DNA of 63,138 nucleotides, the filler included, from Dugesia japonica (Eukaryota): NCBI GenBank assembly GCA_001938525.1. It is 6 parts of 6 records of this genome, joined end to end, with 100 filler letters (N's around TTAATTAATTAA, not from the genome) between each part and the next. Parts side by side here need not be neighbours in the genome. Positions count along the whole stretch, not along the records: positions 8,715 to 17,024 come from MQRL01619629.1; positions 17,125 to 26,264 come from MQRL01584142.1; positions 26,365 to 42,556 come from MQRL01623036.1; positions 42,657 to 52,279 come from MQRL01639239.1; 2 more parts are not named here. One strand, 5' to 3'. This document shows, in pieces, positions 15,935-56,169 of the stretch. Numbering within the stretch: position 1 is the stretch's first letter; each line of letters starts with the position of its first letter. A program made the translations under genes and the position numbers. Under the pieces are notes generated by a model, which saw only the letters and a list, made by a program, of their open reading frames with translations, had not been told where the DNA came from and ran no database searches.

Positions 15935-17020
15935 AATTAAATGTCTGGAATGAGAAAAGATTACCGGAAATTAAAGGAATACATTTGGTCATACATTAAT
16001 AAATCGGGCTAATATTACCTCGAGTGGCGGGAAGTGCAACAAATGCTGAGAGAACGAGAACATCAGATGGAGGAACGACTATTGAAATTACTGGCAGATC
16101 TCAAGGTACAGGGATTACAACTAGCCTCAAAAGATAGTTACATCAAGTCACTGGTACGTCAGTGGGACGAATGGGTCACGATGTACAAGGAAGCAATAAA
16201 GGATCCATCACGGTAAGACAATTATTACACTGAAGACGTGATAAAATGACAGGCATTAAAAGACGAGCCAGGGGAAAAGGAGGAGAAAATGCGGATCTTA
16301 CGTGAGTTGATNGCCTGAGCGGTTCTATTCAACAAATCACTTTTAATGAATAAACTAATTTTAAGTCTAATATTGTGTTGGTTTTATATGTGAATAGAGT
16401 GATATGTAAGTCAATTCCTGAAATGTCAAAAGGTCAATTTCTGAAGAAGACTAAGTTGAAATATCAAATTGCTATAAATACCAAATTAAAAAAAACAATT
16501 TTGATCGAAGCTTTTATTTTAAATGAATATAAGTCATTATAAAAGGAAAATGTGTCAATCTGATTCTTTAACGTGTGTCTGGAAGAGGCCTGGATTGTAA
16601 AAAAATAATATTTTGTGCCAATGAGTTTACTAATTATTGATGAAATTAATTTGATTAATTAATTAATAAAATTAATGGATTAAGGACACGGCTACGGTAT
16701 TTATTTTAATGCGTTGCTGTCAGATGGATTTAATTTAACATTTTTTTGTTTAGTGAATAAATCTAACTGAGTATTAACTCAACAAACTCAACGGAAGGAG
16801 TTATTGAACGCACAGAAACGATGGACAGAAAAGTGTAGGGAACTGCGAAACGAAAGATTGCAGTTAAAGGGGCAAGCATGAAAATCAGCATCGAAATAAT
16901 CCCAGTTAAAACAGAAAGAACTATCCGTACAACAAGCAAACCGCCTCATAGCAAACCTAATATAGATTAACGCCGACCGTAAAGCAGTGGTGTTTAATAC
17001 ATTCAGAACGTTATGGCTAA
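15935..17020 (+). pseudogene. Degenerate coiled-coil coding segments of unknown origin (~15935-16310 and ~16755-17020)
   Basis: E/K/R/L/Q-rich readings (QQMLREREHQMEERLLKLLADLK; QKRWTEKCRELRNERLQLK) with stops, after AG acceptor-like sites. Confidence 0.35.
16435..16471 (+). ncRNA. Minimal type I hammerhead ribozyme motif within a ~100-bp dispersed repeat
   Basis: caattt-CTGAAGA-a-gac-taa-gtt-GAAA-ta-TC-aaattg; helix I caattt/aaattg. Confidence 0.75.
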
Positions 17021-17765
17021 ATAANNNNNNNNNNNNNNNNNNNNNNNNNNNNNNNNNNNNNNNNNNNNTTAATTAATTAANNNNNNNNNNNNNNNNNNNN
17101 NNNNNNNNNNNNNNNNNNNNNNNNTTTTTTATTTCCTTTTTTCAACTGCAAAAAACTAGTAGCAAAATGAATTGTGCCAAATATATTCAATGCCAGTAAT
17201 TTCTAAGAATTAGTAATGTTAAATAAACTTTCTTAATATTTGATGATAATAGAAGATAGGAAAATATTTAATATTTTATTTTATGTATATTTTAGAACCA
17301 TGCTCATTATACACCAATTATTGTGTGAATGAGGCTCACAATGGAGACTNTCATAGTATTATAGAAAAATACTATGGTCAGTGTTTTTTGGGAAAATGTA
17401 TTATATATCTCCAACATGTAAAACAATAGGTACAAACACATATACAAATGATTACATATTGAATGCAGAGCATATAGGACCATTTACCCAGAATAAGAAA
17501 AAATTAATAAAAAAACATATTAAATGAACCTCAAGCTAAGAGAAGAATAAAGGAAGCAGTTGATGACTATATAGTTTCAGATTATGAAGATCCGGCAGCA
17601 ATGGATGTTATGAAAGTTCATGAAGAAAGAGAAGTTATGTTTGAAACGGAATTTTAAAACGAATCAGATTACAAAATTACACCACCACAGCTATTTGAAA
17701 TTGATTGTGATCATTTCCAGATCATAAACGAGTTAGACGAGGAAGATATAGTTTTACAAGCTTGC

Positions 17766-19027
17766 ATGGATGCTGAAGAACAGGAACGTATTGGTGGTGC
17801 GAAAAATACTGTTGTTGAAGATGATAATATTTTCCTGCAAGAATTTATTTATGCAGAAGAAAATAATCAAGTTGTTGGTGTATTAAATCTCGCTGTTTCT
17901 AATGAAGATGTAGTTATCAAAAAGTATTTATATCGTTGCTACCAAATAATTAAAATAAATACATCAAGTTTGAACACAAATCAAATTTTGCTACCGGAAA
18001 ATTTGATCGTCCAACTACTTAAGATAATAGAAGAGTTGGAAGAAGTAAAAATTCAATTTGACATTGACGTTGAATTTATAAAGGATGACGAGATAAAAAC
18101 TTGCTTCATATCATATCGAGCTATTCCTTTAAACGAAAACTTTTTTGATGATGAAATAAAGCAACTGAATGAATAGAATAGAATAAAAGAGCGAACTCGG
18201 TTCCAGTTGGATACTGAGCAGGATTTTAAGAATAAATTTTAAAATCACAAAGGTAGCAACCATCAACAGACTGTCGGGCAATAGTTACATACCGACGCCA
18301 GTCAATCTAAAAAAGAAACGTGCAGTGGTTAATATTAAAAATGAAGATAATAAATGCTTTATTTACAGCATTTTAGCTATTCTCATAAAAGATCGAGTTG
18401 ATAGGAAATGTAGAAATAGAACATGAAAAATATATGTCAGAGTTGAAGTTTGAAGAAACAGACATGCCAATAAAATTAGATAATATTCAGAAATTCGAAA
18501 GAAAAAATCCAGGACTTTCAATTAATGTACTTTTGTGGAATTCAAATGATGTTGAAGATGATGATGAAGAGGTTTACAAACATCCCAATTCAGATATAAT
18601 TCACACGTCTAGAGTAGATAACGGTCAGAAAATCTATTTATTGATGCTAGAAGATGACAACAAGTACCATTACACGGCTGATATGGATCTGAACAGACTG
18701 TTAAATCAAGATACGAAAGGAGAAGGTGTAATAATAAGATCAAATTGGTGTTCAAATTGTTTAAATAGATTTAGGCATGAATTAGCATTTGAGAAGCATG
18801 TGATAATTTGTGAGAAAATCCAAACCGGTACAACTCTATATACCATGCCGCCAGAGAAAGATTTAGAGTTTAAGGATTTCTCTAAATGTCTGACACCACC
18901 ATTCGTAGTATATGCTGATTTTGAATTAGTTCTTCCACCAGATAATGTATACTTTGAAATACATATGCCGGTTTCAGCAAGAACGCTATTAGTAAATAAC
19001 TTTACTAACCAAACAATATACAAGTAA
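17766..19027 (+). pseudogene. Maverick/Polinton-type PolB, N-terminal region up to the exonuclease I motif
   Basis: GSSW.L..I, SGNSYIPTP..LKKKRAVVNIKNEDNKCFIYSIL, MPIKLDNIQKFERKNPGLSINV, CSNCL...HVIIC zinc finger, PFVVYADFE. Confidence 0.88.
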
Positions 19028-19729
19028 ACTTAAAAAGCTAATGTTAACACATTACCCTAAAACTAATTATGTATTGCACTGGAAACTTTTACAAATAAAT
19101 ATAAGGTTGGGAGTAAAGGTTACAGAGGTCCATAGAGTGGTAAGATTTACTCAAGCTCGTATATTCGTATATTTATTATTATTATTAGGTTTGTTTGTTT
19201 TCTTCTTCATTTAAATCAACTAAAATAAGACTTTTGATTTAATACTTTATTTAAAATAAAAATAATTCTTATTTGAAATTCTTCTTGCTTTTTTATTGTC
19301 TTTCCCAATTTATATTTTTAAATAATAATAAACTTAAACAAATTTATTATACTTATTAAAAATATATTTTGCAAATATAAAACTTTCGAATTTAAAATAA
19401 TTTAAAAATAAAACTATAAAATCTAATTATTAAACTTTTCACTAAATATTTACATTTAAAAACTTTTGTAAATAAATATTCTTATAAAGCTTTTCAATTA
19501 AATTTTAAATTTACATTTTAAAAGTTTAAACTGTATAATAATATTAAACATTGATTTTAATAAAATACTTATTGCATTAAATTTTAAAAATAATTAAAAA
19601 TTTACCTATTTTTAAAATTACTTTATTATTATTNNNNNNNNNNNNNNNNNNNNNNNNNNNNNNNNNNNNNNNNNNNNNNNNNNNNNNNNNNNNNNNNNNN
19701 NNNNNNNNNNNNNNNNNNNNNNNNNNNNC

Positions 19730-21142
19730 GACAAGTAGACTGGAAGTAAAAAATTGTCGTCAAAAAAGAAAGCGAAGCATTCAGACCTAAGAAAACATAG
19801 TTCAGTGAAAGAAGGAAATAATTAAAAAGAAAATCAAGATTTGCAGTTAAAACCAATGAAATAACCGAAATTACAACAAGAAACAACTCAGAAATAAGTA
19901 AACCAAGGAAGAAAAGAAGTAATAGAAGCTGTGGCAGGACGAAAAAATAATAATGAATAACCATCATTTCATTCGGCAAAATCAAGATAATCACATTGAA
20001 TTATACTGGAAGAAAGAAAGAATTAACTAAATTAATTAATAAATAGAAGAAAAACAATGAAATAAAATTAAAATAAATCAGAAACAACAAAGAAATGAGC
20101 ACTTAATGAAGATGTACAACGAAAATAAAATAAATAATTTATTTTATTTAAATAAAATAAATCATAAGAATTAAAATGGTTTATTTTAAATAGAAAATAA
20201 AAGTTTCTACAAAAATTAAGAAAAGTAGGACTTCTAGTGGTGCCAAAATTATTAATTCAGAAATTATGATCAAGAAAAAATCGGGAAATTCGAAAATTAA
20301 GGTTAGAAAATCATGTCAAGGATGGGAAAGAAGTTATAAGGGTTTGAAGATTGACCAATAATGTTGAAATCCTAAAATAACCACCAATAAAAAGAAAGCA
20401 TGTGACCATCTGGCCAATAAAAACGCCAAGAATTTATATCCTACCAATGAATGGAACGAGGATGTAAAGAGAAACAGTATAAATACCGTTCAAATTTTAG
20501 ACAACTGACCACCAAAAAAATAATTCTTAAGTGAAAACTCATACACAACCAAACCTCGAAGAAAAAAGCAATATTAATCAATCTTTATTATTGGAAAAAT
20601 TACCGAAGATCGAGAATATCCACGGTAAATATTTAACCATATAAAATTTGGGTTGCAACGATTTTTGACTCAGAAGAATCTACAAAAATGGGTAGAGAAA
20701 GTAGCAAATGAACTCACCCCGATGTGCTTGCTCCGGATCGAGTTTGCAGTCCATGTTAGTTTATTTTTATTCATGTAATTCTAATGTAACGGGTGGAATT
20801 CATAATAATATAACTTTTCACAACCGGATTTTCCTTTTATTTAATATGGTTTTATTTTATTCCTTTATTAAACTGANNNNNNNNNNNNAAATCAACTGAG
20901 TAGTTATCAAAATTTAGCGAGTACTACGAAATATGAATCCAAACCAAAGGGGTGCGAGTCTGTACTAGAGCTACGAGTCAACGGCTTCATTCTGAAGATC
21001 TGGATTTTTTGGGGGACACCAGATTAAAATTCATCGCGGGGTTTTACCAGGTCAATTACCTTAGACTAAATTTCATATAAAGTTTCACCCTCTTAGATGT
21101 AATAATATAATAAATCAACCCACCTAGGGTAAAACCCCAACA
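19730..21142 (+). mobile_element. Long 5' LTR (5' end in gap) of an LTR retroelement
   Basis: Clustered CCAAT boxes at 20350-20450, gtataaata at ~20478, terminus gggtaaaaccccAACA followed by a PBS. Confidence 0.65.
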
Positions 21143-21148
21143 TGAATT

Positions 21149-21166
21149 TGGGGTCTCATCCTGGAT
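21149..21166 (+). promoter_or_regulatory. tRNA-Pro primer-binding site
   Basis: TGGGGTCTCATCCTGGAT matches TGGGGGCTCGTCCGGGAT at 15/18, 6 nt after the LTR-terminal CA. Confidence 0.7.
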
Positions 21167-22275
21167 TATTTGAATAAAAGTTTCTATGTCATCGCCAAGG
21201 TGTAAATAATGCTATATTACGAAGCCTATAGGAGTGTTGTATCTTAAATAATAATATGAATTCGACTACATTAATCCCTAGACGGTAGTATCATTACCAG
21301 CTGAAGTGTATTTCGGGCACAGTATATTTGAAGTCTTGGAATAAATGAGTTGAACCTTTTCACTATTAAATACTGTAAAAGATTTCATAATTCTTTTTAA
21401 AAAAATCTTTAATCCTCAAAACCTATTAGCATCTATCATCATGTTTATCTAAGTTGTTAAGTATATACGAGTTAAAGTATAAGTGAGTTAAACCTTGCTA
21501 CAATCATTCAAAGTATTTGTACAGAAATGCCAAAGGTAGCCCGATAAATTATAACTCCAGTTATTTAACACTTATTTATAAAACAATAAACAGGTTGTAA
21601 TTATTAATCAAACAACTTTGCCAAATTATCCATATCAATGAGAATTAACATAAAAATATATAATCCTTAAAGCAAGACAAAAAACTAAAAGTTATTATTA
21701 TAATTAATAAAAAGATAAGACACGTTAATCTCTTCGATTATTACAATATAAAAGAAAATAACAACCAATAATTATGGCCCCGAAGTGGACCGTTGTTCAT
21801 TCTCGTTTCATCCAGCTTGGCAATCTAAAAATACACATCTTGACCTTCGATAAATATATACCTTCTGCTAAATCCATTATTATCTACATAACTATTTATT
21901 AAAATTAAAACCCAAATAAATGTTACTTAAATTATGAAATAGGTTATGGATTAACAATTTTCCCGAAGGTAAAATCAGACAAAAGACGAAAATATTAAAT
22001 TTGGTATTTCTTCATCCGAATAATTTGACTATATTACCTAAAGGAATCCAATTAAATTTTGATAAAAGGGATCAATGCAGCTACTTACGATTAATTATAG
22101 TATTTCAAGAGTTTTAGTATTAATTTTAATTATGATTTTAAATTTAAAATAAAATTTAACGACATGGCCGGAAAATAATAAATGAGCCGAATAAACAATC
22201 GAGCAATTTAATAATAGGTAAATAACATACAATTGAGAATAAATTGAGTATATTAACCAATATTAAGAAAAAAGT

Positions 22276-22312
22276 CAATTCCTGATGAAGACAAGGTCGA
22301 AATATCGAATTG
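22276..22312 (+). ncRNA. Minimal type I hammerhead ribozyme motif (best-preserved copy)
   Basis: caattc-CTGATGA-a-gac-aag-gtc-GAAA-ta-TC-gaattg: intact core, 6-bp helix I, 3-bp helix II, palindromic AUAU helix III, AUC cleavage triplet. Confidence 0.82.
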
Positions 22313-22849
22313 TTATCAAATATCAATAAAAAAGAAAAAAAACCAAAATTTTGATCAAACCTTTGATATTAAATATTAAGTAATGTTAAAATAAAATTCA
22401 ATAATAGAAATAAATGAAAATAAATACGATGCGGTTAAGAGGAAGTTAATAATAATAAAATTAATATGGATTAATGAAATTAACGCAAACTTGGAATAAC
22501 GTAAACACTTTAAGAAATTACAAATAAGTTTAAAAAAAATTAAAAACAGGGTGAAGTATGAGAGTAAGGACAAAATCAAAGTAGATTAGGAATCTTGTAA
22601 CCAAAATAAATTAAAGTCAAAATAAATTAAGAAAATAAGGATAAAATTAAAAGCAAATTAAGAACATTAATCAAAATGAAGATATGTTATTATGATTATA
22701 TTGCGAATTCAAGTAAAATTTAATTAAATTAAGATCAACGGGAATGAAATAGATTCAGATTAATGAAATTAAAATGAATAAAGTTAATTAGGAACATTAA
22801 AATTAAGAATAAATTAGGAAATCACGATTGAAGTAAAGAATAATAAAGT

Positions 22850-26191: not shown

Positions 26192-26837
26192 TGGCATTGT
26201 AATTATTCTAATACAATTTTCCTATAAGAAATGACTAGTAATAATAATAATTAAGTTTTGAGTGNNNNNNNNNNNNNNNNNNNNNNNNNNNNNNNNNNNN
26301 NNNNNNNNTTAATTAATTAANNNNNNNNNNNNNNNNNNNNNNNNNNNNNNNNNNNNNNNNNNNNTAAGCCCACATAAAGTGCTTTTAAATTATTCTGGAA
26401 TCCCTAAACCACGAAGGATCGAGTGGTTCAAAAACCAGATTTTCAAAAGGAATAAAAAGGAGGAATGTTAGGTATAATATTTAAATATATTTGTTTAAAT
26501 ATTATTGATTTATTTAATTTTAATAAACTTTGAAAATGTCTACTTTTGAATTACAAACTCTAACTAATATCATTAGTATTATTTATTGTGATTATTATTT
26601 TTATTATTATTATCATTAATAATATTTTTATTATAATTAACCCAATCTCGCTATATTTATAAATCAATTAATTTATCTATTAAAAATTTATTAAAAATAT
26701 TTAACTTAAAATTTTAATAAAATTAAGCTTTATTTAGTACTTTGAAGTAGTTATCGAGCTAAACAATATTAAAGTTTGAATAAATTAAAAAGCTTCGATC
26801 AAAATATAGTTTGTTTTAATATTCTATTAGTTGTTAG

Positions 26838-26875
26838 TAATTCGAATTTTCAACAATTGTCTTCTTCAGAAATTA
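26838..26875 (-). ncRNA. Minimal hammerhead motif, same repeat family
   Basis: taattt-CTGAAGA-a-gac-aatt-gtt-GAAA-at-TC-gaatta; helix III palindrome is AAUU here. Confidence 0.72.
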
Positions 26876-27044: not shown

Positions 27045-28492
27045 CCGAGTTTAAACTCGTGAAGTATAATGACAAGGAAAGCTATTCTGTCCATGGTAAC
27101 TAGTTCGTTCACTTATAACGAAAAATTATTATAATATCCGTGCAAAATCTTTCCAATATATGAAATAGATATTTTTCATAGATATTCTTGAAATTCTGGA
27201 CTATTGAAAAATCCACCATTACTTTTTGAATGACCTAATATGTGAACTCAACTTTGGTGTAAAGTAAAAGAATCTAGCACGATAGTATTGTGTTTATCAA
27301 CAATCACTATCATAAAAGTTTAACGGAATATAATAATGGATGGATTAGCCAATAGACCTAAGAGATTCTTACTTTAATGTGAAAGACTCAAAACTGATCA
27401 GTTGGTTCAATATCCAAAGAGAAACAAATGTGCTGTTAAGCGGCCATATTCCTTATGTGAATGCCGATGAAATCGCTGAGCAAAAAGATATTCAAACATT
27501 CAAATGAAGTTAATGTTGGATCAAAAAAATACATTAAATCCTATTCCAAACTATTAATGGATAGTGTAACGCAGTTGATCAATCAACAGTTAATGATAAG
27601 CTACAAAACGAATTACTAAAAATAACTGCAGAATATAATTACAAAAATATTTTAATGCTGATTTGTTTTTTAGTGTGCTACTTAATAAAATTCTAGCAGT
27701 CAAAAAGGAATCATATCACGGTGGTAATTTATCTAAATGAAGACTTAAAGTGATTCTTTGTGTAATTTTAACTGATGAAAAATGAACACCTATCATTATT
27801 GAAAAATATTTAAGGCCAAAACNNNNNNNNNNNNNNNNNNNNNNNNNNNNNNNNNNNNNNNNNNNNNNNNNNNNNGTATGAAAAACGATAATATAAAGGT
27901 AGAAATGATGAAGCTGGGCTAAGAATTAATGATTAAAAGAAAAATTTTATTTTTCGTTGATAGGCGTCTTGAAAATCCTAATATTAATAAATTGCTTAAA
28001 AACATTAAACTATATTTTCTGCCACAAGATACCACCAGTGTTTTGGATCCTATGGACACTGGGATTATGAAGAATTTCAAAAAATATAATAAATCAATAA
28101 TACTCGAGATAATACGAACACTTGATACAACAGGGAATGAGTTTAAATCCAGTATTTTTGACAAATGCATGATAAATAGTTTCTCTTCAAAAAATTAAAC
28201 ATTTATTCCATCATTCAATTTTATCTAAAGTTGGAATAGAAATTGGTAGCAATATAAGTGTTGAAACGATCCCTGAAATGATGACAGATGAAACTGTGGA
28301 TCTTTTCTGAAGCAAGCAATAATTGATAGAATATATTGCTATTGGTCGAAATGTACTTTGCAACTCGATTAACAATATAGAAGAAATTTATTATTAATTT
28401 ATTTTTATTTATGCCAGTTAAAGTGAAACTCCAGTTATTGTGAACTAAACACTTTAGTCCCCAAAACACCCACTATAACCGATTATAATTGT
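27045..28492 (+). mobile_element. Tigger/pogo DNA transposon, decayed (ends approximate)
   Basis: CENP-B HTH LISWFNIQRETNVLLSG; IFNAD; KESYHGGNLSK.RL; RKILFFVD...IKLYFLPQDTTSVLDPMDTGI. Confidence 0.88.
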
Positions 28493-28745
28493 AATTGTAA
28501 AATTAATTAATTAAATTAACAATTATTACTAATTCAATTAGTCAAAATGGATTATCAACTTAAATAGTAAAGATATTTAAATAATTTAAAAATACACACA
28601 TACAGGAAATTTTTAAACAAATGATAAATTTTATGTTTTTTGATGGTTTATCATATTTATTGTTATTTTTTATGCATTTATTATAAAATGTTTGAAAAAT
28701 TTAATTGATTATTGAAGTTACACTGTAATAATGTAAAATCCATTA

Positions 28746-34800: not shown

Positions 34801-37800
34801 AACTGTACTAACTATGCATTTTGTTCCACCGCCACCAGAGCACCCTCCAACACATTGATCAATACAACAACCTAATTCCTCTCCATTAAAAAAATGGCAC
34901 ATAGTACATTCAGTATGATATTTAACGTTACACAAAGTTTCTAAAAAATATTAAAAATTGTGTATTATTTACAAAATTATTAAATGAATCTCTTGTAATT
35001 TTAAATAGCAGTAAAAAATGCATTTCCATTTTTGAATAAATGATATAAAATCGATTAATAAATAAATTTCTAAGGTTATTTTCAATTGTATTTGTTGCAA
35101 TAAATATATTTTTCTGGTATAAATAAAAATATTAAAATGAGTTTATATAAACTAGATTTTAATAATAATTTACAATTTACTCGTGCAATATTTAAAAATG
35201 ATTTACTTAAAATATCAACATCATCGGGAACATTATCCAATTTGATGAAAGCAGGTGATATAGTTTTTTAAACTTCTAACCTATTACATATTTGTAATGG
35301 AAAATTATTAGGTTTAGATAGATAGGATCTCACTGTACCAAATTTCCCTCGCCAGGCAAAATGAGTAAAATTAATAATTTGTTTAAATTAAATTAATTTT
35401 AATGATTTTTAAGGAAATTTTTTTTACAGATAATCGGTGGAAAAGCCTATTTTCGTTTAAAAAACCAAACTTTTTAAGTTAATATTAATGTTAATATCAG
35501 TTGCTATTCGTGATGATCAGCTACTCTCTCGAATAATTAGCTGCTTTCCCGGATTATTAGCCCTTATCCCAAATAATCAGCTTCTCCACCGAACAATATA
35601 AATACTATAAAAAAATAGTTACTGCAGGATTTCAGTTCTTTCTTCATGCGATTATTATTCTCGCAATAATTGCAATTGTAATATATATATATATATATAT
35701 AATTAATAATGTTCTGTGGAAAAGCTAATTATCTGGAGGAACAGCGAATTATCCGGGTGAGCAGCTAATAATGCGGGATAGCAACTAAGAACCCTAGGGA
35801 AAGCTAATGTTAATGTTAACATTGCCCGGAGGGCGGCTAATATTAATATTGTACGAGAAAAATTCGCTTAATTACTTATAAATTTGAAAATTTTGGTTTA
35901 TTTAAAGAAACTAGGCTTTCCGCCGATTTTGTGTCAACAAATTCCACGAAAATCATTTTTACTTTATTTAAACAAAAAGCATTAAATTAATTCAATTTAG
36001 ACAAAAAATGAATCTCTGAGGATTATTTAACGTTTATATTCATGTATGGTTTGTAGTCGTTATATTTATACATTATTTCTGGCCGAGTTATTGTACCTTA
36101 TATTAGTCTTTTATAATTTATATTATTTTATTAAATTTGTTTTTATTATATTAAATACGTTTGTTGACCCAAAGTTTGCCGAGTTGTGTGGCAACAGGTT
36201 GGGTGTACGAAGATTAATGTATTCAAATATATTTTTAGCAAAATAGCAAATGAAAAATAAAAATTCGAAACCAAATCAACTATATTATTTAACAAAGTAA
36301 ATGTAAATTTCTCGGTGTNNNNNNNNNNNNNNNNNNNNNNNNNNNNNNNNNNNNNNNNNNNNNNNNNNNNNNNNNNNNNNNNNNNNNNNNNNNNNNNNNT
36401 TTGCAGGTTTTCAGAATAATTTATTCAAAACCAACTTAAATGATGGATTTGGTTATTAATTTTCAAAACTTTTACAAAAAATAAAAAAAGTAAAAATAAA
36501 ACCATTACAGTTTACATAGTTATTACGAAATACTAAATTTGAGATATCATCGGTGCAAACGGATTACATAATAAAATATATAAACTTCCTCACCAGTTGT
36601 TGCGTATCACGTAATCGGATAAAACAAGTCTGATTGGTGGGCGAAGGAGAGGGGAAATTCGTACAATGTACTCCAATTTATCTACTATTAGTGCGTCTAA
36701 TTAAAAATGAGTGTTTGCTACAATGACTTAAATTAAAGATAACCGTGTTGAGTTTGAATTAAAACAAATTATTCATTATTGTTTAATAATCTGCAAACCT
36801 TTCTGAATAAATAAGTTTATTTTATTTTTACTGACATTGCTTTAATTTGACATTTTTAGCGCCAAAGATTACAGTAAAATATGAAATTTTGGTAATTTTT
36901 TTACATTATTGGAAACAAAAGATGTCTGCTTCCGAAGCTACCCGGTTTATCGCATAGCAAAAGGCTCGGGTGAAATTAAGAAAAGCACAGCAAGACGGTT
37001 GTTCATCAAGTTCAACAACGCCTGAACGCAAATCATGCTCTGATAGAATGGGTCTATTAGAAGAAAGTGTTTTGCAAGAGTATGTAAAATCCGATCTATC
37101 TCTTTCTACACATCAAATGCAGGAACACTCAGCTCTTCAAAATTAGTCATCTTTCGATATCTATGCACAGTGGGCAAAAAATATAGTGCTTCTAAAATGG
37201 ATCTTTAGGAACTAATGGATGTTCCAGAGAACAAACGACTTCAAATTTGAAAAATGTTAATAAATAACTCATTAGACGAAGGGTTTTTTAAAAGTATTGT
37301 TACAATTTACGAAAAGTGGGTATTGTTTAACAATCCTGACAAAAGATGACAATAGCTATCGACAAATGAATCACCTATTTTTATTTCAATCCACCGATTT
37401 GAAAAAAAGATAATCATTTCTGATTTTGGGAATTGTGATGGCATCTTGTTTTTTGAACTTCTTTCAGATATTCAAAGTATAAACTCCGATATTTACTCAA
37501 CACAGTTAGAAATACTTCAAGAAGTTATGAAAGCAAAGTATCCTCATTTAATTAACCGGAAGAAATTTTTGTTATAAACAAACAATACTAGGCCACATTT
37601 CTTACGATATCAACGGAAACTATAAACAGTCTTGACGGAATTGAGATACTACCACATCCATAACACTTGCTTGTGGTTTCTGCCTTTCATATGTTTCGAC
37701 CGATGGTACATTTTTCCGAGAGCAGGGCTTTTTTCGAATAAACTTAACCTTCAGAATAACGTCACAATTTTCTTTAACTCAAAATCTTCGGATTAGTACA

Positions 37801-40307: not shown

Positions 40308-41380
40308 CTAGAAAAAAAACCAAATTTTGAACCAATTACTATAATAAAAACGATCTAATAAATCAAAATTTGCTAATCTGCTTTACAAAATTATAAAAGA
40401 AATTATCATCTGCGATTAAACAAGCTGAGTCTACAGAAGCAGTTGTAAAAAAATGTTTTCGTTTTCATTTTATTAAAAAAAAGTAAGTTACTTACTGTAA
40501 GTAACTCAATTCTCTGATATTTAAAGTATAACTGAATATAATTATTATATTTTTGTTTAAAATATTTATTTGTATAAATAATCAGGAATATTTATTTGTG
40601 ATTAAAAATATCAATTGAAAAAAAATGCAGAAAGAAATATTTCATCACCACATTTGTGTATATTCTCCAGAATTCGTCAGCTGATTAGAGGCATGCACCG
40701 AAAGTCTACAAAATCAATGCGCGTACACGAGTATAAATTTAGTGAGATTTAAATAGGCACACAAAATTTGTAGAGTTGTAGACTTCACATACTATAAAGA
40801 ATGTATAAATAGCACGCTGTTATAGCACAGGAAATTTATTGATTAATGGTTAAGTTTATATAAAATCTCAATTTTAATGGAATGCCTAAAATGGAATTAG
40901 ATGATAATTAAATTTCGATTCAATTTTCACACTGAATTTGACATGATTACTTAATCAGTGAATGACAAGAGAATCTCTATAAAAGCAAAATTAATAAATT
41001 AAATATCTGTAACATTTTGCGTCAATAATGTAAATTAACAAAATTAGTTTTTAGAAGTCAAAAACAAATACAAAATTTTTTTTGATTTTTTTTCTTAAAA
41101 AATGTAAAATTTCAATTAATTAAATTTTGAAATAATTTGCCACTTAATAGACCGTTCATTGTCCTTAATGATTTTCTTGTAAAATATCTTGAGATTCTAA
41201 ATAATGAAATAAATTTTCATAGTTAATTTCTTATCAATTTAGAAGTTTTATCTTGATTTACGAGAAAAATAATTCATTATTCATTATCAAGATAAAATAG
41301 GCCGAATATTTTAAATTTATCATTATTAATAATAATATTATTATTAAAAAATAAATAACGCCATTTAAAATAAAATTTAG

Positions 41381-41975
41381 TTGTTATATATTTCGACGGA
41401 TCAACCGTCATCAGACAAAAATGAAAAAATGAGTTTATTAAAGTCTAAATTATTTAAAACAAAGATTCAAGCAATTATACTGAATATAAGACAGCTATAA
41501 TTCTTAATTTTTTAAATTTAAATAATTTTTCAATAAAAAATTAATTTATATTTTAATAAAATATTTTTCTATAATAATATTTTATTAAAATCACTATTTT
41601 AAACCTGTATAAATCAGAAAAACCAAAAAAAAATGTTTTTCAAAAGTATTTAAAATTTTTAAAATTTGAATTTTTGTGCAGTCTACAACGTATGTAGCAT
41701 ACCACCCATTACATTTAAATTGATAAACAAAGTTAGAACACAAACCAATTGGGGTATGGGATTTATTAACAAAGCTATTATCCATCTTATGTCAAGTAGA
41801 AACCATTTTCAATAAAGGAAGATCCTTAGCAGATTTCAGAATCTAATTCTTAAACTTTTTAAAACCTTCAGAATAAGGAATCGGTAAAACAAATGGACCA
41901 ATACAGTTTGATAAAGTGTTATCAGGTTCAGGATTATTCAACACAGTTTCAATCTTTTTATCGAAATCAATTTGA
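41381..41975 (-). mobile_element. Penelope-like element 3' relic (GIY-YIG endonuclease plus hammerhead-like motif at 41381-41418)
   Basis: LPIPYSEG...FVNKSHTPIGLCSNFVYQFKCNGWYATYV; downstream ttgt-CTGATGA-cggttgatccgtc-GAAA-tata-TA-acaa. Confidence 0.82.
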
Positions 41976-42886: not shown

Positions 42887-42899
42887 TTATTAATAATAA

Positions 42900-44278
42900 A
42901 AAAATAGAAATATGAACAGTAATGTTAATAATAATAGTTTGAGTATGAATCAGTAATAACGATATGAATCTAGTACATTGACTACTCCTAATGGGTCTTC
43001 ATAGATGATGATAATAACTAAGACATGATCATTAAGGAGTCGAAGCATGGTTTATAATGTTTATCAACGACTGGGATATTAATGGATACGAACGAAAAGG
43101 TTTATTAATACTGGGTAATATAATAGTCTATAGATAATAATAATAATTTGAAAACGATATTATATCTCGATAAATGAAGCATTTTTAATGTTAGAATATT
43201 AGAAAATTTTAAAAAATAACTAAATAAACACTGTTATTTTCAATACATTTAATTAAAATACGGATAAGAATTACAAATACTAATGTACCTCTTGACTGCT
43301 ATGCTGGAACTGGAACAATAAATTTTGACTTAAAGAAAATGAAAAATCGATAGAATTGTAATTGAATAGGAATAGGAATTTAGAACTGGATTGTTAGCTT
43401 TACCGAGCTGTTTATTCTTTGATTATACGAGGGGTTGAGAATTTATTTTCTTGTTATGACTGAAACGAACGTAGAGCAACAATATCAATGATTTGGTGTT
43501 GGTATTGTTGAAGAGAATTTTCGAAATAATGAAGTTTCTCGATTAAATTTGCTACTGAATGGAAATCGTATTTATACTATGAAGTTGATGATTGATTTTG
43601 ATTCTTGGCAGGTTAATTTCCTGGATTCTCGAAATTAATGGACTACTTTCTGTATAAACTATTCGTGTCTAGATAATGGATCTTATATTCCGGAGATGAG
43701 TTGACGGTTCTACGGAAGCTTTCGTGCTGAAAATGGATTTCTGAAAAACGGTTAGATGATCATTAATTTTAAAATCTAATATGGGATATTCTGGAAATTG
43801 AAAATTTTAATTAGTCTTCTGATTGGCTGGAACGATTGATTAGGTGAGTTTTGAATTTGATTAATGGTGTTTTAATTAATCTTTTTTATTAATTAATTTT
43901 TGTGTTTTTCAAGACCCTTTTATAGTTGATTTTGGTCCCAATTCCAACCTCATTGGTTATTTGTTCTAAATTATTCCGTTAATTACTTCAAGAAATGTTT
44001 GATTTTCCAGAAAAATAAAAAAATTTGATGGTAATTTTATTTTGATTTACTTTTTAATTTTACCATTTTTTATAGATTTGTTTGTTATTTCTAATTGCAA
44101 TCCAGACAATTTGAAAATCATTTGACTTTCTTCCAAATATTTCGAGATATCTTGTAATTTGTAGTTGATTTTTTACAAATAAATTTTGTTTTTAATCTCG
44201 TTTTTAATTTCATTTATCCATTTTTCATTTGATTTGTATTTAATTTGGTTATATCATTGATTGGGTTCTGTCCCAACA
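42900..44278 (-). mobile_element. Solo LTR-like unit
   Basis: Begins TGTTGGGACAGAACCCAA; CCAAT boxes then gtataaatac at ~43570, the same layout as 19730-21142; distal end unclear. Confidence 0.5.
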
Positions 44279-44298
44279 ATAATAATAATAATATTAAT

Positions 44299-44506
44299 AA
44301 TTTATTTAAAATAAAAGCTTCGATCAAAAATTATTTTTATTATTTTTTTGAGATTGATTCTATATTTCGACTTTGTCTTCGTCAGGAATTGACTTTTTAT
44401 GACTTTAAAAAAGTCAATTCCTGACGAAAACAAAGTCGAAATATCGCATCAATCTAAAAAAAGCAATAAAATAATTTTTGATCGAAGCTTTTATTTTAAA
44501 TGAATT
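44299..44506. repeat. ~200-bp palindrome made of two inverted copies of the hammerhead-bearing repeat
   Basis: Minus-strand motif 44356-44391 (caattc-CTGACGA-a-gac-aaa-gtc-GAAA-ta-TA-gaatc) and plus-strand motif 44415-44450. Confidence 0.9.
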
Positions 44507-44567
44507 CTAAAAAATTATCAATGATTATGTCCAACAATTATTCTCGCAATAATTGTAATTGTAAAAC

Positions 44568-44598
<31 letters not shown>

Positions 44599-44660: not shown

Positions 44661-45812
44661 CATTTCTTATAAGTAGTAAATAAAAACATATTTTGAATAA
44701 GTAATTGCAAATATAATTTTATATTAATATCGTCTTTTGTAATTATGTAAACATTTAAATGATAATAATAACAACAAATATTGTTTGAAAGGTCATGGTT
44801 TAATTGTGAAATTTCACACCGTAAAAAATACTATTTGAGACTATTATTTTCCATGAACAAATTGTAAAGAGTGTGCAAGTTCATAAATAATAAAAAATAT
44901 TTTATTAACGATAACAATTATCTTTTTGAATATTCACATGCCAATAAAAAATAATTAGGTATAAAAATTCCTACGTCTATAAAATTTCATTGTTTGCATG
45001 ATAAGTTCTTGTCACGGTATGAAAATTTTTGAAACAAGAAAAAATTCATTGTTTTCAATAAGGTCTGAAAATTCTCACGGTTAAAGAAAACACTTAATCA
45101 TATGGTCTCGATCCGTCATATCCACCTACTAATATTTTAATTTAATTTAATTAATTATAGATTACTTTAAATTTAATTTAACATTTATAATAATCTTTTA
45201 TTTTCCTACTTAAATGAATCACAATAAGCTTTAAAATGATTTTTTTTCATTAATTTACACTAAATTTCAATTAAAANTAATAANTGATTTTATGAATTCA
45301 TCTTCAATAAGAATGGAAAACATCTAATAAAACATTAAGAAAAATAATTTTCTATTTGTATTTATATGATAACCATTTTAATAAAATCATGTTCGTTTAC
45401 TAAATATTAATAAATTAATTAAAACATTGTTAAATCCATTTCATTTAATATATCAATAATTGATAAAAAATAATTAATATATAATATGTTAATATTAATG
45501 AAAGTACACTAATAAAAAAATTAATCATGGCTATTAATTTGTCAAATATAAAAAAAACAGAAAGCCAGCTGATAACATACAACATGATAATTTTATAATT
45601 CAAAAATAATTGATGTTATCTTATATCGTTGTAGTAAATCAACCAATTCCTACTCATACGGTTTCGTGCTTCATGTCTGTGTGTAACATTGATTATTTCA
45701 ATATTGATTAATAATATTAGTACTTTTAGTTTAACATATTTTTTATGCTTATATTATGAAATGATTAATAAATGACTTATAAATGAAATGACAAGTGCTA
45801 ATATAATATATT

Positions 45813-48800
45813 TGTGATATATTTAAATTATGATATTTAAATATATCTAAATTCAAATCATTGAATATTTAAAATTAAATATTTAAATGAATTTGATTTG
45901 TTTTAATATTGCTATTTTATGTAATGTCTATAAATGCCTTATTAGTTAATATCTACATTTATAAAACTTTACATTTAGAAACTTTACCTGTAGAAATTTA
46001 TGTTTAAAGAAAAGGAAGCTAAGTTGTTCAAGTTCAGAAAGGCCTATGAAAGCTCAGTCAATATTCGAGAACATCTAAAAAACGTCAAGGAATTTTATTT
46101 ATTCGATGCTTGTAGCATCACCGCAGAAGAGAGAATTACTATATTTAGTAAATATTTTGACGACAACTTGATGAAGGAAATAAAATGTGATCCAAGCTTT
46201 GAGAGTACGATATCAATTACTTGGAAAAATATCTTATCAATTTACTGGATGTTAAACCATCAAAAATTAACCAAGATATGCCGATACTTGAATTAATGCA
46301 GTATCGAGGAGAAAAAATAATGGATTTTGTTAAGCGTATTCGTATGGAGAGCAGAGTTTTATCTGACAAGAAAGAGGAAATTATGGTAAAAGCATTTATT
46401 AATTGCTTGGGTTCATAGAAAATTGGCAAATGCACTAAATATATTCGAACCAAAATCATTGGAAGAGGCTGTAGAAAGTATAAAAGATGATAGATGACTA
46501 CGAAACGAATGAAAATGTATTATGTAATATGCGCCAAGAGAATGAAACTATAAAGAATTTGAAAATTGAAATAGAAAAGTTAAAGAATGAAATTACCGAA
46601 CTAAAGAGGCATAATTACAAATCTCGTGCAACAAATGTGTTTTATAAAAATAGGAATAATAATGCACAAAGTTCTGAAAAACCCGAAAATGGATAACTGT
46701 GAGTAGACAAGAAACAAGAACATACTTTACAAGTGGTAAAAATGGCCATATAGCTAGAGATTGAAATATCAAAAAAATTTTCAGATGTGGGGGCGACCAT
46801 CTTAAAAGAAACTGCAAACATACAAGCAATCTAAGATACTATTATTAAGAATAAGAGCAAATATAATCCGTAATCAATGATGAAATAGAAGAAAATTACA
46901 GCGATTTAAGTGAAAATAAACCATCTTGGAACTCTCAAAAATCTACTGAACTAATTAAAACGTTTAAACCGTCACTTGAAGATAAGTATGTCAATTTTAT
47001 CGAAAGAAATGGAGCCCGACCAGTACAAACACTTAAGAAATTTGAACCAACACTAATATCAGTGTCAAGGCCAGAAAAAGCAAGAAATAAACCAATTGTT
47101 GAATGTCAGGTTGCAGGGATACCAGTAAAAACTAAGTTTGACATGAGCGCTGATTTGAATGTTATAAGTCATGAATTAGCCAAGCGTATCTGTAAAAAGA
47201 ACCCTGCTGTAAGAATTTTTAAATCTATGACAAAAGTAACATGCGCAAATGNTACAANAGAAGAATGTTTGGGGAAGATACAATTAAATATGTCAATTGG
47301 ACCTGTAATGACAGCACACGTGTTTGATATTATGCCAAATATATTTCCACATCTATATTGGATTAAGAAGCATGAAAAAATACGAAATAATGGTGGATGC
47401 AGCAAATGATAGAATAATAATGTTAAGATTCCATTTATTTCAAAAACAGTTCTACCTGAGTCAATAAAAAACTAACACCGACCGTGTTAATGAGTTGTAA
47501 TACGGTATTCGGAAAAGCAGAGACTCATGAGATTTATAATGATAATCAATGTTTTAGAAGAGGGGTATCTGAAAACGTAGATGCAAGTGGAATTGGTGAA
47601 TATTTTATCAGAAGCATGATAATGGACCACTCAGATTTGAAAATTACTTATGACATGAGTAAAGAATGTATTTTCATTGGAGATGAAGAGAAAATCGCCG
47701 TGCGGAAACGTTTATTAACAGATGGAATTACAATCGATAATAATGGATACATGTGGGTAAGAATATATATGTTAGAAGGCGGATGTAAAACTCTACACAC
47801 TGAAACTACACTCGGATATGAAGAAGAGTTTAATCAAAATGAAGAAGTGTTTGAAAAAATATCACTTAGAAAATTGTCCTCAGAAAAACAAAGAACAGAG
47901 GATGAAATTACAGACAATATACTGCAGAAAATTAAAAATGATATGGAAGTTACAAACAATTACTAAGATGCGGTCAAAACATTAGCAATCCTTGAAAGGA
48001 ATAAAGATTTATTTAGTCAATATAATATGGATGTGGGTAAAACTGATATGATTGAACATAAAATCCAAACAACCGATAGCAGACCAATTGCTTTCAAGCC
48101 ACGAAGAATACCATAAGAACTCGAAGAAGAAGTAGAACATGTGGTAAAAGATTTGATATATGTTGGTGTTGTAAAGCCGAGTACTTATCCATGCAGCTTT
48201 ACAATTGTAGTGGTGAAAAAGAAAAACGGTGATAACCGTATGTGTGTTGACTACAAGGCACTGAATGATCAAACAGAAACCGACCAATATTTCCAATACC
48301 ATCATCAGAGGAAATATTTGATAGTATTGTTGGAGCTAACTATTTTTCAACTCTAGACCTTTCAAGGTGGATATCGTCAAGTGCCGATAGCTAAAAAAGA
48401 TCAGGAAAAAACAGCATTCAGCACAAAGTTTGGACAATTTAATTTTGCACAATACGAATTTACCAGAATGCCGTTTGGGTTATGCTCAGCACCAGCGACA
48501 TTTCAGCGGTTTATGAATATTGTATTGAGAAATGAAAATTGTAAATAGTGCATAATATATTTAGACGATGTTTTAATATTCGGTAAAACTGTAGAAGAGC
48601 ATAATGAAAAACTAGATCAAATATTAAGAAGAATAAGAGAAGCTGGACCTAAATTAGCACCAAATAAATGTAAATTTTTACAGGAAAAAATACAATATCT
48701 CGGACATATAATAGCTAAATATGGAATTTCAACAGATTCTGATAAGATAATGGCAATCCAAAAATGGGAGATTCCTCAATGTCGAAAAGAACTTCAAACA

Positions 48801-50946
48801 TTTTTAGGGTTTTGTAATTATTATAGACGATTCATAAAGAATTATGCAAATTTATCAGAACTTCTCAGTTCGATGCTAAAGAAAGAAAACAAATTTCGGT
48901 GGACAGATGAAAATTAAGAATATTTTTACAAGCTACATAAAAGGTTGACAGAACCACCTGTGCTAGCTTGGCCAACAAAGGATGGAAAGTATATCTTGGA
49001 TACAGATGTTTCTCACAAAGAAATTGGTGCTGTTCTTTCTCAAGTACAAGATGGCGAAGAACGAGTATTATACTATGCATCGAAGACACTAACAAAAAGT
49101 CAGAAAAAGTACTGCATCACAAGAAAAGAGCTTCTGGCAATATTTGTGTTTGTCCTCAAGTTTCAGCACTATTTAATCGGATCACAATTTGTGGAACGAA
49201 CAGATAATCAAGCATTAAAATGGATGCTTAATTGGGATAGCCCAAATACGTCACAATACTGCATATGGAAAGTTGAACTGGAAATCTTTGATATGATCGT
49301 AGAATTCAGAAAAGATCGTGAACATATTAATGTTGATGCACTTTCACGATTAGAAGATTGCGAGCAGTGTTTAATAAAACATGAGGATCCAAAAAGGAAA
49401 AGAAAGGTTAAAATATACAAACCAACAGACAAAGATGAGGAACAATGTATACGCTCAGAAAAAGTTATAAACAAAATATACCAGGAAGATGAATGAGAAC
49501 AAAGAAAATATATAAATATACGAATAATATTACAGGCTCTAGAAAGAAACAAGAGAACACTTCGTAACGTAGAGGTAAATAAGGAAATACAATCGTATTG
49601 GGAGAAAAAGAAAGAAATGCGAATACGAGGTGAGATGCTATATTTAGAAAACGATGAGAAATATCATATTGTGCCCAGACATAAAAGAGAAGATGTCATT
49701 TGAAAATATCATAAGTTATTGGGTCATCCAGGAGTAAAGAAAACAACAAGACTTATCAAAAACTAGTATTATTGTCCGTGTATGGAAAAAAACATAAGAG
49801 AACAACTATCAAAATGTAAACAGTGTAGTGCGCATACATATATTAACGGAAGAATTAAAGTTCCATTGCAGAATATGTTTATATGTTTAATTCCATTACG
49901 AACAATAACAACTGAAGACATATGTGAAGCTCTTTGGATACATTGGATATCCAAGTTCAAAATACCTTAGAATTACTTGGATTGTGGTAGTAATTTTAGT
50001 TCAGGTGCATTTCAGTAATATTGCAAGCAATCTCCATATTACCCTCAAGGAAACGAATTAGTAGAAAGATTATTTAGAACCGCAAAACCTATGATTAGTG
50101 CAGTACTAGAAGACAGGCGAATTCAAGATTGGAGTACGGTTCTACCAATAATAGAATATGGATTATGAACAACAACACAAAAAACGGCTAAGTACACTCC
50201 GTATGAAATAGTATTTCGGAGGAAACTTAGAATTGATATATGGAACGCTGGAAGGAAAGAGGAAAACAAACATCACAAAGAATTCTGATCAATATGTAAA
50301 ACAATTAAAAAGAAATATTATAAATATTCATGACCATGTAAGAAACAATATTGAAAAACATAATGAAGTTACAGCAGCTAAATATGACAAACATCGGTAG
50401 TGAGATGAAATTAAATTTGATGATAAAGTTCTGATAAAAAACAATGCACATGATGGTTTTAAAAGGAATATATTGAACCATTTAAAGTAATAAAGAAAAT
50501 TAATGAATGAACTTACACTTTGGTTGATGAAAATAGAAACACTTTAATTAAACGAAACTAAAACCACATCAAAAGAATACCAAGAGATGAAATTTCTTAC
50601 AAGTCCTGGAGCACACAAATATCAGTAAGAAGCAAACAAAAAACAGCCTTACCAGTACAACCTGACCGACGAATTGAGATCGATATCAGGAAAAGTTATT
50701 CAGAAATAATGACAAGGAATTCGAATCCTCAATATCGATAAAGTAAAGGGAGGAATATATATATTTAAATTATGATAATTTTAAATATATCTAAATTCAA
50801 ATTATTGAATATTTAATATTAAATATACACAATATTAAAATGAATTTGATTTGTTTTAATATTGCTATTTTATGAAATATAATGTTAACTTGTTAAATAA
50901 CTTATTATTTAATATCTAAATTTATATAAAAATATTATCTATTACA
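45813..50946 (+). mobile_element. Ty3/Gypsy LTR retrotransposon, near full length but decayed
   Basis: LTRs ~45813-45980 and 50756-50946, PPT aaagggaggaa, gag CCHC relics, protease FDMSADLNVI, RT RMCVDYKALN/RMPFGL/YLDD, RNase H LDTDVS...YCITRKELLA, integrase HKLLGHPG...CKQC. Confidence 0.95.
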
Positions 50947-51059
50947 CAGGAAAAATTTACACGGGAAAAATTTCAAAAAGTTACTAAATTAATAAAGTTT
51001 TAATTTCAAATTTACTTCTTTGTTACATCAATAACAATCATAGATTAAGTATAACAATA

Positions 51060-51813
51060 TAATATCAAATATTAAAAGTTAAGCAATATGAGCTATAGAC
51101 CACAAGAACTNNNNNNNNNNNNNNNNNNNNNNNNNNNNNNNNNNNNNNNNNNNNNNNNNNNNNNNNNNNNNNNNNNGAATACGCCCATAGTGTTTTGACC
51201 AGTTAAATAGTTTGTATGTTGCTAGGACAATTCCTTGATGATGTTATTCAGAAATTTCCAAATTATTGAATGGGAACACTAAAAAAGTGACTGAAATCCG
51301 AAGTGATATTCTTCTATACAATTTGTAATTCTTGCTATGCAGTTTGCTGCTGATTCCTTATTGTTTCAATTTGTAAGTTCTGTTTTTAAGTTGCCTTCCT
51401 CCAATATATGTAAGCTCAAAATAGGAGAGTATTTGATCAATTTGTTTATTATATTAATTCACATCCAAATATAGTTCAGAAACTTCTAAAAATTCCTCCA
51501 CGACTTCTTCTTCTGGTAACAAAGCAAGGGATAACAACATTTTTATATGTATAGCAAAAGACTGATTAGATTCATACAAAGTTTTCAATCCACACTCATG
51601 AAACTTACGCTGAATGGATTGTGATAGATGAAAAAAACATCCGCCAATTTCGATTTTTTCAAATACGATACGAAAGGCTTTCATTGCTGCAGTTTCAAAA
51701 TCTGTCAAGATTTTTCGTGGCTGTGCTTGAGGAATTATTTCCAGTAACTTATTTGGCATTTCCACGTATATTCTTTCTTTTGTTAGTCTAAGTTTTTGTT
51801 TTCTAATTTTCAA
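51060..51813 (-). mobile_element. MULE (Mutator-like) transposase relic
   Basis: PRKILTDFETAAMKAF...GCFFHLSQSIQRK...GL..LY...LSLALLP...YFELTYIG. Confidence 0.88.
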
Positions 51814-51944
51814 ATTTGTTATAATTTTATGTTAATTGTAATATAGCCAAGTAAATTTTATAAATTTATAATTTAAATTTTTTTTATTAAGTATATGTTT
51901 TATTAACTTTTTTTGTGTAATTCTTTCTTTGTGTAATTTCTTCT

Positions 51945-52012
51945 CATTTAAAATAAAAGCTTCGATCAAAATATTTGTTTTGTTATTGATATTTTATAAC
52001 AATTCAATTGAA
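51945..52012 (-). repeat. Truncated copy of the hammerhead-bearing repeat (3' part only)
   Basis: tcatttaaaataaaagcttcgatcaaaa...aacaattc; ribozyme core absent. Confidence 0.75.
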
Positions 52013-56165: not shown

Positions 56166-56169
56166 AATT

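What the first reader, a model, noticed from the sequence alone, without database searches (positions are those of the whole stretch)
16428..52012. Dispersed ~100-bp repeat carrying a covarying minimal hammerhead ribozyme
Seen: six copies across four contigs (16435+, 22276+, 26838-, 44356-, 44415+, truncated 51945-) of aagtcaattY-CTGANGA-a-gac-loop-gtY-GAAA-NN-TH-Raattg...ttttgatcgaagcttttattttaaatgaat. Helix I changes compensate (caattc/gaattg vs caattt/aaattg), helix II keeps pairing through G-U with a variable loop, and helix III stays palindromic (AUAU vs AAUU). Known: Penelope-like pLTRs and retrozymes carry minimal type I hammerheads with palindromic helix III thought to act as dimers. 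Inference: an abundant non-autonomous, ribozyme-bearing retroelement family, with a loop-less helix III that could only form between two copies.
Basis: partly seen in the sequence, partly recalled or inferred. Interest (0 to 1): 0.8.

Follow-up and report, generated by a model that had tools for sequence, protein, structure and literature searches.

The report
Penelope retrotransposon ends with minimal hammerheads
Scattered 100-base repeats in an animal genome each carry a tiny self-cutting RNA motif and look like leftover end pieces of Penelope-type jumping genes, an arrangement already described in many animals.

Summary
The repeat is real: six copies on four of six contigs. Five keep an invariant hammerhead core. 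Four pass a minimal type I descriptor that 1000 simulated windows almost never produce. The core is more conserved than other columns (11/11 vs 34/66, p=0.0015) but not more than a downstream box.

'Covarying' is not shown: 34 and 65 of 500 shuffles do as well. Two of five copies break helix I, and the sixth has lost its core.

The loop-less palindromic helix III, the extra base after A9 and opposite-strand pairs are the published 'min-HHR' of Penelope-like elements (PLEs; PMC4209133). The window supports that origin. It holds a PLE RT/GIY-YIG remnant with its own min-HHR and the same 14-nt 3' word, and a head-to-head pair with a one-sided extension in an (AAT)n tract. One copy starts with an 18-bp palindrome. 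No tandem copies occur, so this is not a retrozyme.

Verdict: decaying solo 3' ends of a PLE, a new member of a known kind. What remains open is a very short helix II and a shared 5' boundary in three of five insertions.

The parts
16428..16528 (+). Copy c1. Core 16441-16465, predicted cut after 16465; helix I 6 bp, helix II 3 bp with G-U, helix III AUAU
16408..16421 (+). Short duplicate of the element's 5' start just upstream of c1 (stutter or deleted partial copy)
   Evidence: core-profile hit E 0.14; sequence
22268..22371 (+). Copy c2, the best-formed hammerhead. Core 22282-22306; helices I and II have pair probabilities 0.88-0.94
22259..22380 (+). Possible 9-nt target-site duplication abutting c2 (22259-22267 and 22372-22380)
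   Evidence: 158 of 8279 background pairs do as well (46 of 357 locally); suggestive only
26779..26875 (-). Copy c3, the most divergent. Core 26869-26844; helix III AAUU, 4-nt loop II, U-rich lead
44300..44398 (-). Copy c4, inverted partner of c5. Core 44385-44361; helix I 4 bp, A at position 17
44399..44406 (.). Spacer at the head-to-head junction, containing a short duplicate of the element's first bases
44407..44505 (+). Copy c5, 93% identical to c4. Core 44421-44445; G10.1 and one helix I pair lost, predicted dead
44506..44564 (+). 3' extension present on c5 only (candidate PLE 'tail'), related to 40065-39988(-) and 35654-35683(+)
   Evidence: (78%, E 6.6e-11; 86%, E 3.4e-8)
44275..44583 (+). 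19-nt direct repeat (44275-44293 and 44565-44583) in an (AAT)n tract flanking the c4/c5 unit; possible target-site duplication
   Evidence: 0 of 8282 background pairs, but it is simple-repeat sequence
51944..52016 (-). Copy c6: core absent; starts with an 18-nt palindrome (51999-52016) centred 2 nt 5' of the predicted cut site; lies upstream of a MULE transposase fragment
41666..41974 (-). Broken PLE coding remnant: RT thumb/linker and first part of the GIY-YIG endonuclease, two in-frame stops
   Evidence: 25 hits, best E 3.4e-16; GIY-YIG and RVT_1 on hits; iE 9e-14
41385..41414 (-). Second, different min-HHR-like motif about 250 nt downstream of the PLE remnant on the same strand (6-nt palindrome ATATAT, helix I 4 bp, weak helix II)
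   Evidence: 0.004 such motifs expected per simulated window
41362..41375 (-). 14-nt word after the PLE-linked motif, identical to the 3' end of c1, c5 and c6
   Evidence: 19 of 5779 background windows share a word this long with the family

Best explanation
The repeat is the 3'-terminal piece (solo pseudo-LTR end) of a Penelope-like retrotransposon family in an AT-rich animal genome. Shown: it carries the minimal type I hammerhead typical of PLE ends, and the genome hosts PLEs with a similar end. Inferred from known PLE biology: the PLE's GIY-YIG endonuclease nicks AT-rich DNA, its RT starts about 60 nt (or, with the tail, about 120 nt) downstream of the hammerhead, and it usually stops early. 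That leaves 100-nt pieces, sometimes with a head-to-head inverted copy or a fold-back palindrome at the 5' end. In the parent element, two tandem pLTR copies in one RNA, probably helped by the PLE protein, pair their 4-nt palindromes to build helix III and cut after UH. Selection on the core acted in the active parent lineages. The dispersed single copies cannot dimerise in cis and are decaying.
For: The anatomy matches the published consensus point by point: core, extra base after A9, G10.1-C11.1, palindromic 15.2-16.2 with no loop (vs 27). The same AUAU-C and AAUU helix III forms occur among the 56 published motifs. Most published min-HHRs are single dispersed motifs, with opposite-strand pairs also reported. 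Head-to-head inverted pLTRs, a one-sided tail, 5' palindromes (an 18-bp one), solo pLTRs and AT-rich targets are described PLE features (PMC3846280; PMC8557442), and the window shows each. A PLE remnant with its own min-HHR and the same 14-nt 3' word lies in the window. The core is more conserved than other columns. c4 and c5, from one insertion, differ at 8 columns, three of them at G10.1, position 17 and helix I, so the core region decays after insertion.
Against: No PLE coding sequence adjoins any of the six copies (140 PLE proteins by tblastn and a profile HMM). Upstream flanks share nothing, so the parent of this family was not seen. The link to the PLE remnant rests on one AT-rich 14-mer picked after the fact and on a shared 10-nt core stretch; the two hammerheads are otherwise different. 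Three of five insertions start within 1-2 nt of the same point, which random 5' truncation does not predict. The c5 extension (about 60 nt) is longer than the 30-40 nt tail in the literature. Covariation is not significant. Nearest-neighbour energies favour the double hammerhead only for c2 (-4.8 kcal/mol vs -17.1 for the best dimer fold). No cleavage was tested.
Confidence: 0.68

Rival explanations
1. A discrete non-autonomous mini-element (SINE-like, about 105 nt) derived from a PLE end and mobilised in trans by PLE proteins. Its own transcript has a fixed start 13-14 nt upstream of the core.
For: c1, c2 and c4/c5 begin at the same point; c2 has a possible target-site duplication abutting both ends. 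No copy extends into shared upstream sequence. Density is high: 5 insertions in 61.6 kb, 95% interval 2.6-19 per 100 kb. pLTR sequences suffice for mobilisation in trans (PMC3846280).
Against: Only five insertion events. The boundary lies in an A-run. c3 and c6 start elsewhere. No internal promoter was identified. Run-off at a PLE transcription start, or recombination between pLTRs, would give the same fixed end without a separate element.
Confidence: 0.2
2. A non-LTR retrozyme: a tandem repeat whose hammerheads release a circular RNA that is retroposed.
For: Short repeats of the element's first bases at the junctions of c1 and c4/c5 could be more-than-unit-length copies. Retrozymes also occur as solo monomers and are related to pLTRs (bioRxiv 10.64898/2026.07.22.740005).
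Against: No tandem copy in the window. The unit is about 100 nt against 150-450 nt. The ribozyme is minimal, whereas described retrozymes mostly carry canonical type I motifs (PMC7229834). The copies span the cut site instead of ending at it.
Confidence: 0.07
3. An ordinary AT-rich repeat whose hammerhead look is chance.
For: No significant Rfam match. Covariation is not significant. Predicted helices are weak in four of five copies. The 3' box is about as conserved as the core.
Against: The descriptor is expected 0.002 times per window, so even a single ancestral match is unlikely. The core is invariant in 55 of 55 cells while N7 varies freely (A, U, C). It fits the published consensus, and a second motif of the same build sits right behind a PLE ORF remnant.
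Confidence: 0.05

Closest known systems
Minimal type I hammerhead (min-HHR) of metazoan Penelope-like elements (Cervera and de la Pena 2014, PMC4209133)
   Same: CUGANGA core, one extra base before helix II, G10.1-Y11.1, GAAA-NN-UH with a palindromic loop-less helix III, mostly single dispersed copies, opposite-strand pairs, high variability between copies.
   Different: Helix II is 3 bp with a 3-nt loop (9 nt), shorter than any of the 56 rows of their Fig. S3 (the shortest, C. briggsae and M. japonicus, are 11 nt). The lead sequence is A-rich in four copies, not U-rich. Helix I is 6 bp rather than 3-5.
Solo and inverted pLTRs of endonuclease-bearing PLEs (Adineta vaga Pen families, PMC3846280; Penelope/Poseidon layout, PMC8557442)
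   Same: Head-to-head inverted copy, extension on one side only, 5' palindrome, AT-rich or microsatellite target, solo copies without an ORF.
   Different: The unit is about 100 nt against about 190-220 nt. The parent ORF was not found next to any copy. The PLE clade was not determined.
PAc (Poseidon of Anolis carolinensis; Frangieh et al. 2024, PMC11167929)
   Same: Hammerhead about 60-120 nt upstream of the element's 3' end(s); AT-rich target. Their two RT start sites would match ends with and without the extension.
   Different: In PAc the ORF starts inside helix II; no such start is evident here. Protein-assisted cleavage and internal RT initiation are shown for PAc and only inferred here.
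Non-LTR retrozymes of animals (PMC7229834; bioRxiv 10.64898/2026.07.22.740005)
   Same: Non-coding, type I hammerhead, dispersed, related to PLE ends.
   Different: Those are tandem 150-450 nt repeats, mostly with canonical hammerheads, expressed as circles; here the copies are single or inverted, about 100 nt, with a minimal motif.

Membership tests
PLE-type minimal hammerhead (min-HHR) | Conserved core C3-A9, G12-A15.1, U16.1, H17 | tested here: met
   0 changes in 55 cells over five copies; c6 has no core
PLE-type minimal hammerhead (min-HHR) | Extra nucleotide between 9 and 10.1, and a G10.1-C11.1 pair | tested here: met
   Extra A in 5 of 5; G-C in 2, G-U in 2, broken in 1
PLE-type minimal hammerhead (min-HHR) | Palindromic 15.2-16.2 with no loop 3 | tested here: met
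   AUAU in 4 of 5, AAUU in 1 of 5
PLE-type minimal hammerhead (min-HHR) | Helices I and II supported by covariation | tested here: inconclusive
   89% of cells pair, slid controls 7-42%; 34/500 and 65/500 shuffles match the observed values; only five sequences
PLE-type minimal hammerhead (min-HHR) | Self-cleavage as a dimer or with protein help | not testable with these tools
   Needs in vitro cleavage; folding energies are not decisive
Penelope-like element 3' end (pLTR) | Joined downstream of an RT plus GIY-YIG ORF | tested here: inconclusive
   Not seen for any of 6 copies; seen for a different motif sharing a 14-nt end. Solo copies are the published norm and only 63 kb could be searched
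Penelope-like element 3' end (pLTR) | Inverted 5' copy or 5' palindrome; optional one-sided tail | tested here: met
   c4/c5 head-to-head with extension on c5 only; c6 with an 18-nt palindrome
Penelope-like element 3' end (pLTR) | AT-rich or microsatellite targets, variable target-site duplication | tested here: inconclusive
   c4/c5 in (AAT)n with a 19-nt repeat; c2 9 nt (2% background); c1, c3, c6 no better than chance
Penelope-like element 3' end (pLTR) | Variable 5' truncation | tested here: inconclusive
   Three of five insertions share a 5' boundary, two differ
Non-LTR retrozyme | Head-to-tail tandem units each with a hammerhead | tested here: not met
   No tandem copy; the rest of the genome was not available
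Non-LTR retrozyme | Expression as circular RNA | not testable with these tools
   No RNA data
Rfam hammerhead families | Score at or above the gathering threshold | tested here: not met
   No match in the window at E<=10; 16.7 bits vs 56.3 for RAGATH-1 at c2

The most novel reading that the evidence does not exclude
The 100-nt copies are not random truncations but a fixed-end product. PLE reverse transcriptase starts internally in the first (5') pLTR copy of the transcript and runs off the RNA's 5' end 13-14 nt upstream of the hammerhead core, stuttering on the last bases. Alternatively they form a true hammerhead-bearing PLE-SINE. Copy c6, which starts at the cut site and folds back, would be cDNA of an RNA already cleaved in vivo. 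This would explain why solo min-HHRs outnumber full PLEs in animal genomes. It would also give genomic evidence of in vivo cleavage by one of the shortest natural hammerheads (25-nt core with helix II). I saw no such account in the listings or passages, which is a narrow search.
Probability: 0.2. Interest if true: 0.55.

Novelty: new member of a known kind. Interest (0 to 1): 0.25.

Why it matters
As it stands this is one more family of the widespread PLE minimal hammerheads, so it adds an example rather than a principle. Two details could be useful. Helix II is shorter than in any of the 56 published representatives, which would set a lower size limit if it cleaves. The shared 5' boundary, plus one copy starting at the cut site, suggests that copy ends across the genome could test whether PLE hammerheads cut in vivo. 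That question is open: no reads ending at the cut site were found for PAc.

Tried and rejected
Rfam scan of the whole window: 13 matches, none a hammerhead. The miRNA-family matches at 44361-44445 come from the c4/c5 inverted repeat, which folds as a -110 kcal/mol hairpin.

RNAalifold on five copies gave a non-hammerhead fold.

CpG decay as the source of the apparent compensation: several changes are C>T or G>A at CpG, but CpG observed/expected is 0.86, so this was not adopted.

Pfam on 128 of 250 stop-to-stop frames (those of 62 aa or more without X) found no PLE domain. The remnant itself has no Pfam match and was identified only through its relatives.

A weak PLE-profile hit at 20609-20782 (iE 0.12), 1.5 kb upstream of c2, was rejected as noise. 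Descriptor hits at 40680(-), 48308(-) and 27772(+) lack helix I and were rejected. A U3-A8 core variant gave no hit.

Apparent similarity between downstream flanks of c1, c2 and c4 fell to 15-17 of 400 with AT-matched controls, across 28 pairs, and was rejected. No clean empty site was found for c6.

The organism was not identified. The cullin-2 exon gave two unnamed relatives, none among longer proteins, and uninformative taxa.

The paper on dimer cleavage by short PLE hammerheads (PMC5785218) is not held; I saw only its title in a reference list. No eukaryotic genome collection was open, so other copies of the family stayed unchecked.
Full report
Setting. The window is six contigs joined by artificial spacers, about 27% G+C. 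It is rich in transposon debris (Tc1/mariner, MULE, gypsy-type RT/RNase H) and holds a diverged cullin-2 exon. It is therefore an AT-rich eukaryote, by inference an animal. A flatworm is my guess from recall, and no call supports it.

The observation. Six copies of a repeat of about 100 nt lie on four contigs at the stated places; profile searches find no further copy. Five read: A-rich lead, 6-nt helix I strand, CUGANGA, an extra A, a 3-bp stem with a 3-4 nt loop, GAAA, two bases, UH, the other helix I strand, an A-rich linker, a conserved box and an AT-rich end. A descriptor for such a motif gives 4 hits with helix I of at least 3 bp, against a mean of 0.002 in 1000 order-2 Markov simulations, and 3 hits with 6 bp against 0. 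All 11 core columns are invariant, against 34 of 66 well-aligned other columns (p=0.0015; p=0.034 without the divergent c3). The 3' box does about as well as the core (14 of 17, p=0.21). c6, which has no core, was left out of these counts. The motif is real.

Covariation is not established. Of 55 cells, 89% pair, far above the slid controls (7-42%). But only three cells change on both sides, and 65 and 34 of 500 shuffles reach the observed count and score. c4 keeps 4 of 6 helix I pairs. c5 loses G10.1-C11.1 and a pair beside the cut site. These two come from one inverted insertion and differ at 8 columns, three of them in or next to the ribozyme's stems and cut site, which indicates decay after insertion. 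Only c2 is predicted to form helices I and II with high probability (0.88-0.94). Rfam has no matching family.

What it is. Cervera and de la Pena (PMC4209133; I read parts 1-2 of 4 of the text and parts 1-2 of 3 of the supplement) defined a minimal hammerhead with no loop 3 on the reasoning that it would work as a dimer. They found it in PLE pseudo-LTRs and, far more often, as single dispersed motifs, with some pairs on opposite strands. Their consensus has the extra base after A9, G10.1-C11.1 and palindromic 15.2-16.2. Their 56 examples include AUAU-C (Nematostella, Latimeria) and AAUU (Crassostrea). Monomers did not cleave and dimers cleaved weakly. The differences are small: helix II here is 9 nt in all, against 11 nt for the shortest published rows, and the lead is A-rich.

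Evidence inside the window for a PLE origin. (i) A broken coding remnant at 41974-41666(-) matches 25 proteins (best E 3.4e-16). Of the 19 of them scanned, 8 carry a GIY-YIG and/or an RT match, and the longer relatives carry RT plus PF26215. It is the only PLE coding piece in the window. About 250 nt downstream on the same strand is a second min-HHR-like motif (41414-41385; 0.004 expected per window). It is followed by a 14-nt word identical to the 3' end of c1, c5 and c6; 19 of 5779 background windows do as well. (ii) c4 and c5 are head-to-head, only c5 has a 3' extension, and that extension recurs at 40065(-) and 35654(+). The unit sits in an (AAT)n tract with a 19-nt flanking repeat. (iii) c6 starts with an 18-nt palindrome. 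Inverted head-to-head pLTRs, a one-sided tail, 5' palindromes, solo pLTRs and AT-rich targets are described for PLEs (passages of PMC3846280; PMC8557442; PMC8969392). Against this, no copy of the family adjoins PLE coding sequence, and upstream flanks share nothing, so the parent element was not seen.

How it most likely works. Shown: the anatomy, the conservation of the core and the PLE-type junctions. Taken from the literature: PLE transcripts start in the upstream pLTR (passages of PMC2377424). In the anole element the endonuclease cuts AT-rich DNA, RT starts internally at two sites that bound the tail, and the hammerhead cleaves only with the protein and is not needed for insertion in vitro (PMC11167929, parts 1-2 of 4). 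Inferred: these repeats are cDNA of the last 100-160 nt of such an RNA, inserted at AT-rich nicks. The hammerhead was selected in the parent, where two pLTRs in one transcript can pair their palindromes. The copies seen here cannot do so in cis. No two intact copies share a strand and contig, and a transcript through c4/c5 would form a long hairpin.

Rivals. A discrete non-autonomous element is the main rival, because three of five insertions begin 13-14 nt upstream of C3, two of them with short stutters of the first bases. The density is also high: 5 insertions in 61.6 kb. The sample is tiny and the boundary lies in an A-run. Run-off at a PLE transcription start or recombination between pLTRs would look the same. 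A retrozyme is unlikely: no tandem copies, a short unit and a minimal motif (passages of PMC7229834; parts 1 and 3 of 5 of bioRxiv 10.64898/2026.07.22.740005; that preprint's supplements could not be seen and may list similar families). Chance is very unlikely.

Verdict. Real, correctly recognised as a PLE-type minimal hammerhead, and overstated as covarying and as unusual. It is a new member of a known kind, interest 0.25. The fixed 5' end and the copy starting at the cut site are worth a genome-wide look (probability 0.2, interest 0.55 if they hold). Cleavage, expression and copy number outside this window are untested.

Noticed in passing
window 41974-41362 (-): PLE remnant (RT thumb to GIY-YIG start) followed by a second, different min-HHR-like motif with a 6-nt palindrome; its helix II may have lost a few bases by slippage.
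   Followed up: yes
window 40130-39988 (-), 35654-35683 (+), 28485-28500 (+): Further relatives of the c5 extension. The one at 35654 runs into an (AT)n tract. The one at 40065 is preceded by a possible badly decayed hammerhead that does not pass the descriptor.
   Followed up: partly
window 56083-56445 (-): Frame matching Pfam Monjiviricetes_fusion (E 2.6e-11): a viral-type glycoprotein fragment, on the contig that also has an RT fragment at 52819-53070.
   Followed up: no
window 45994-50400 (+): Broken gypsy-type LTR element: RT and RNase H matches at 48357-49493, with a protease-like frame upstream (by eye).
   Followed up: no
window 17658-19211 (+): Several long frames that look by recall like Polinton/Maverick DNA polymerase B remnants; no Pfam or PHROGs match, so unverified.
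   Followed up: partly
window 57785-58114 (+): Cullin-2 N-terminal exon, strongly diverged.
   Followed up: partly
window 3456-4180 and 6615-7750: Two inverted blocks of a 21/42/105-nt minisatellite about 3 kb apart, possibly the ends of a fold-back type DNA transposon.
   Followed up: no
window 4557-5862, 56960-57507, 58693-59505: Near-identical 250-300 nt direct repeats on either side of N gaps, probably scaffolding artefacts.
   Followed up: no
window 51457-51831 (-) and 50941-50973 (+): MULE transposase fragment with short tandem units nearby; c6 appears to have inserted into such units.
   Followed up: partly
window 40305-40207 (-): Cysteine-rich 33-codon stretch after a splice-acceptor-like signal that looked like a host exon; no meaningful match among solved structures.
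   Followed up: partly
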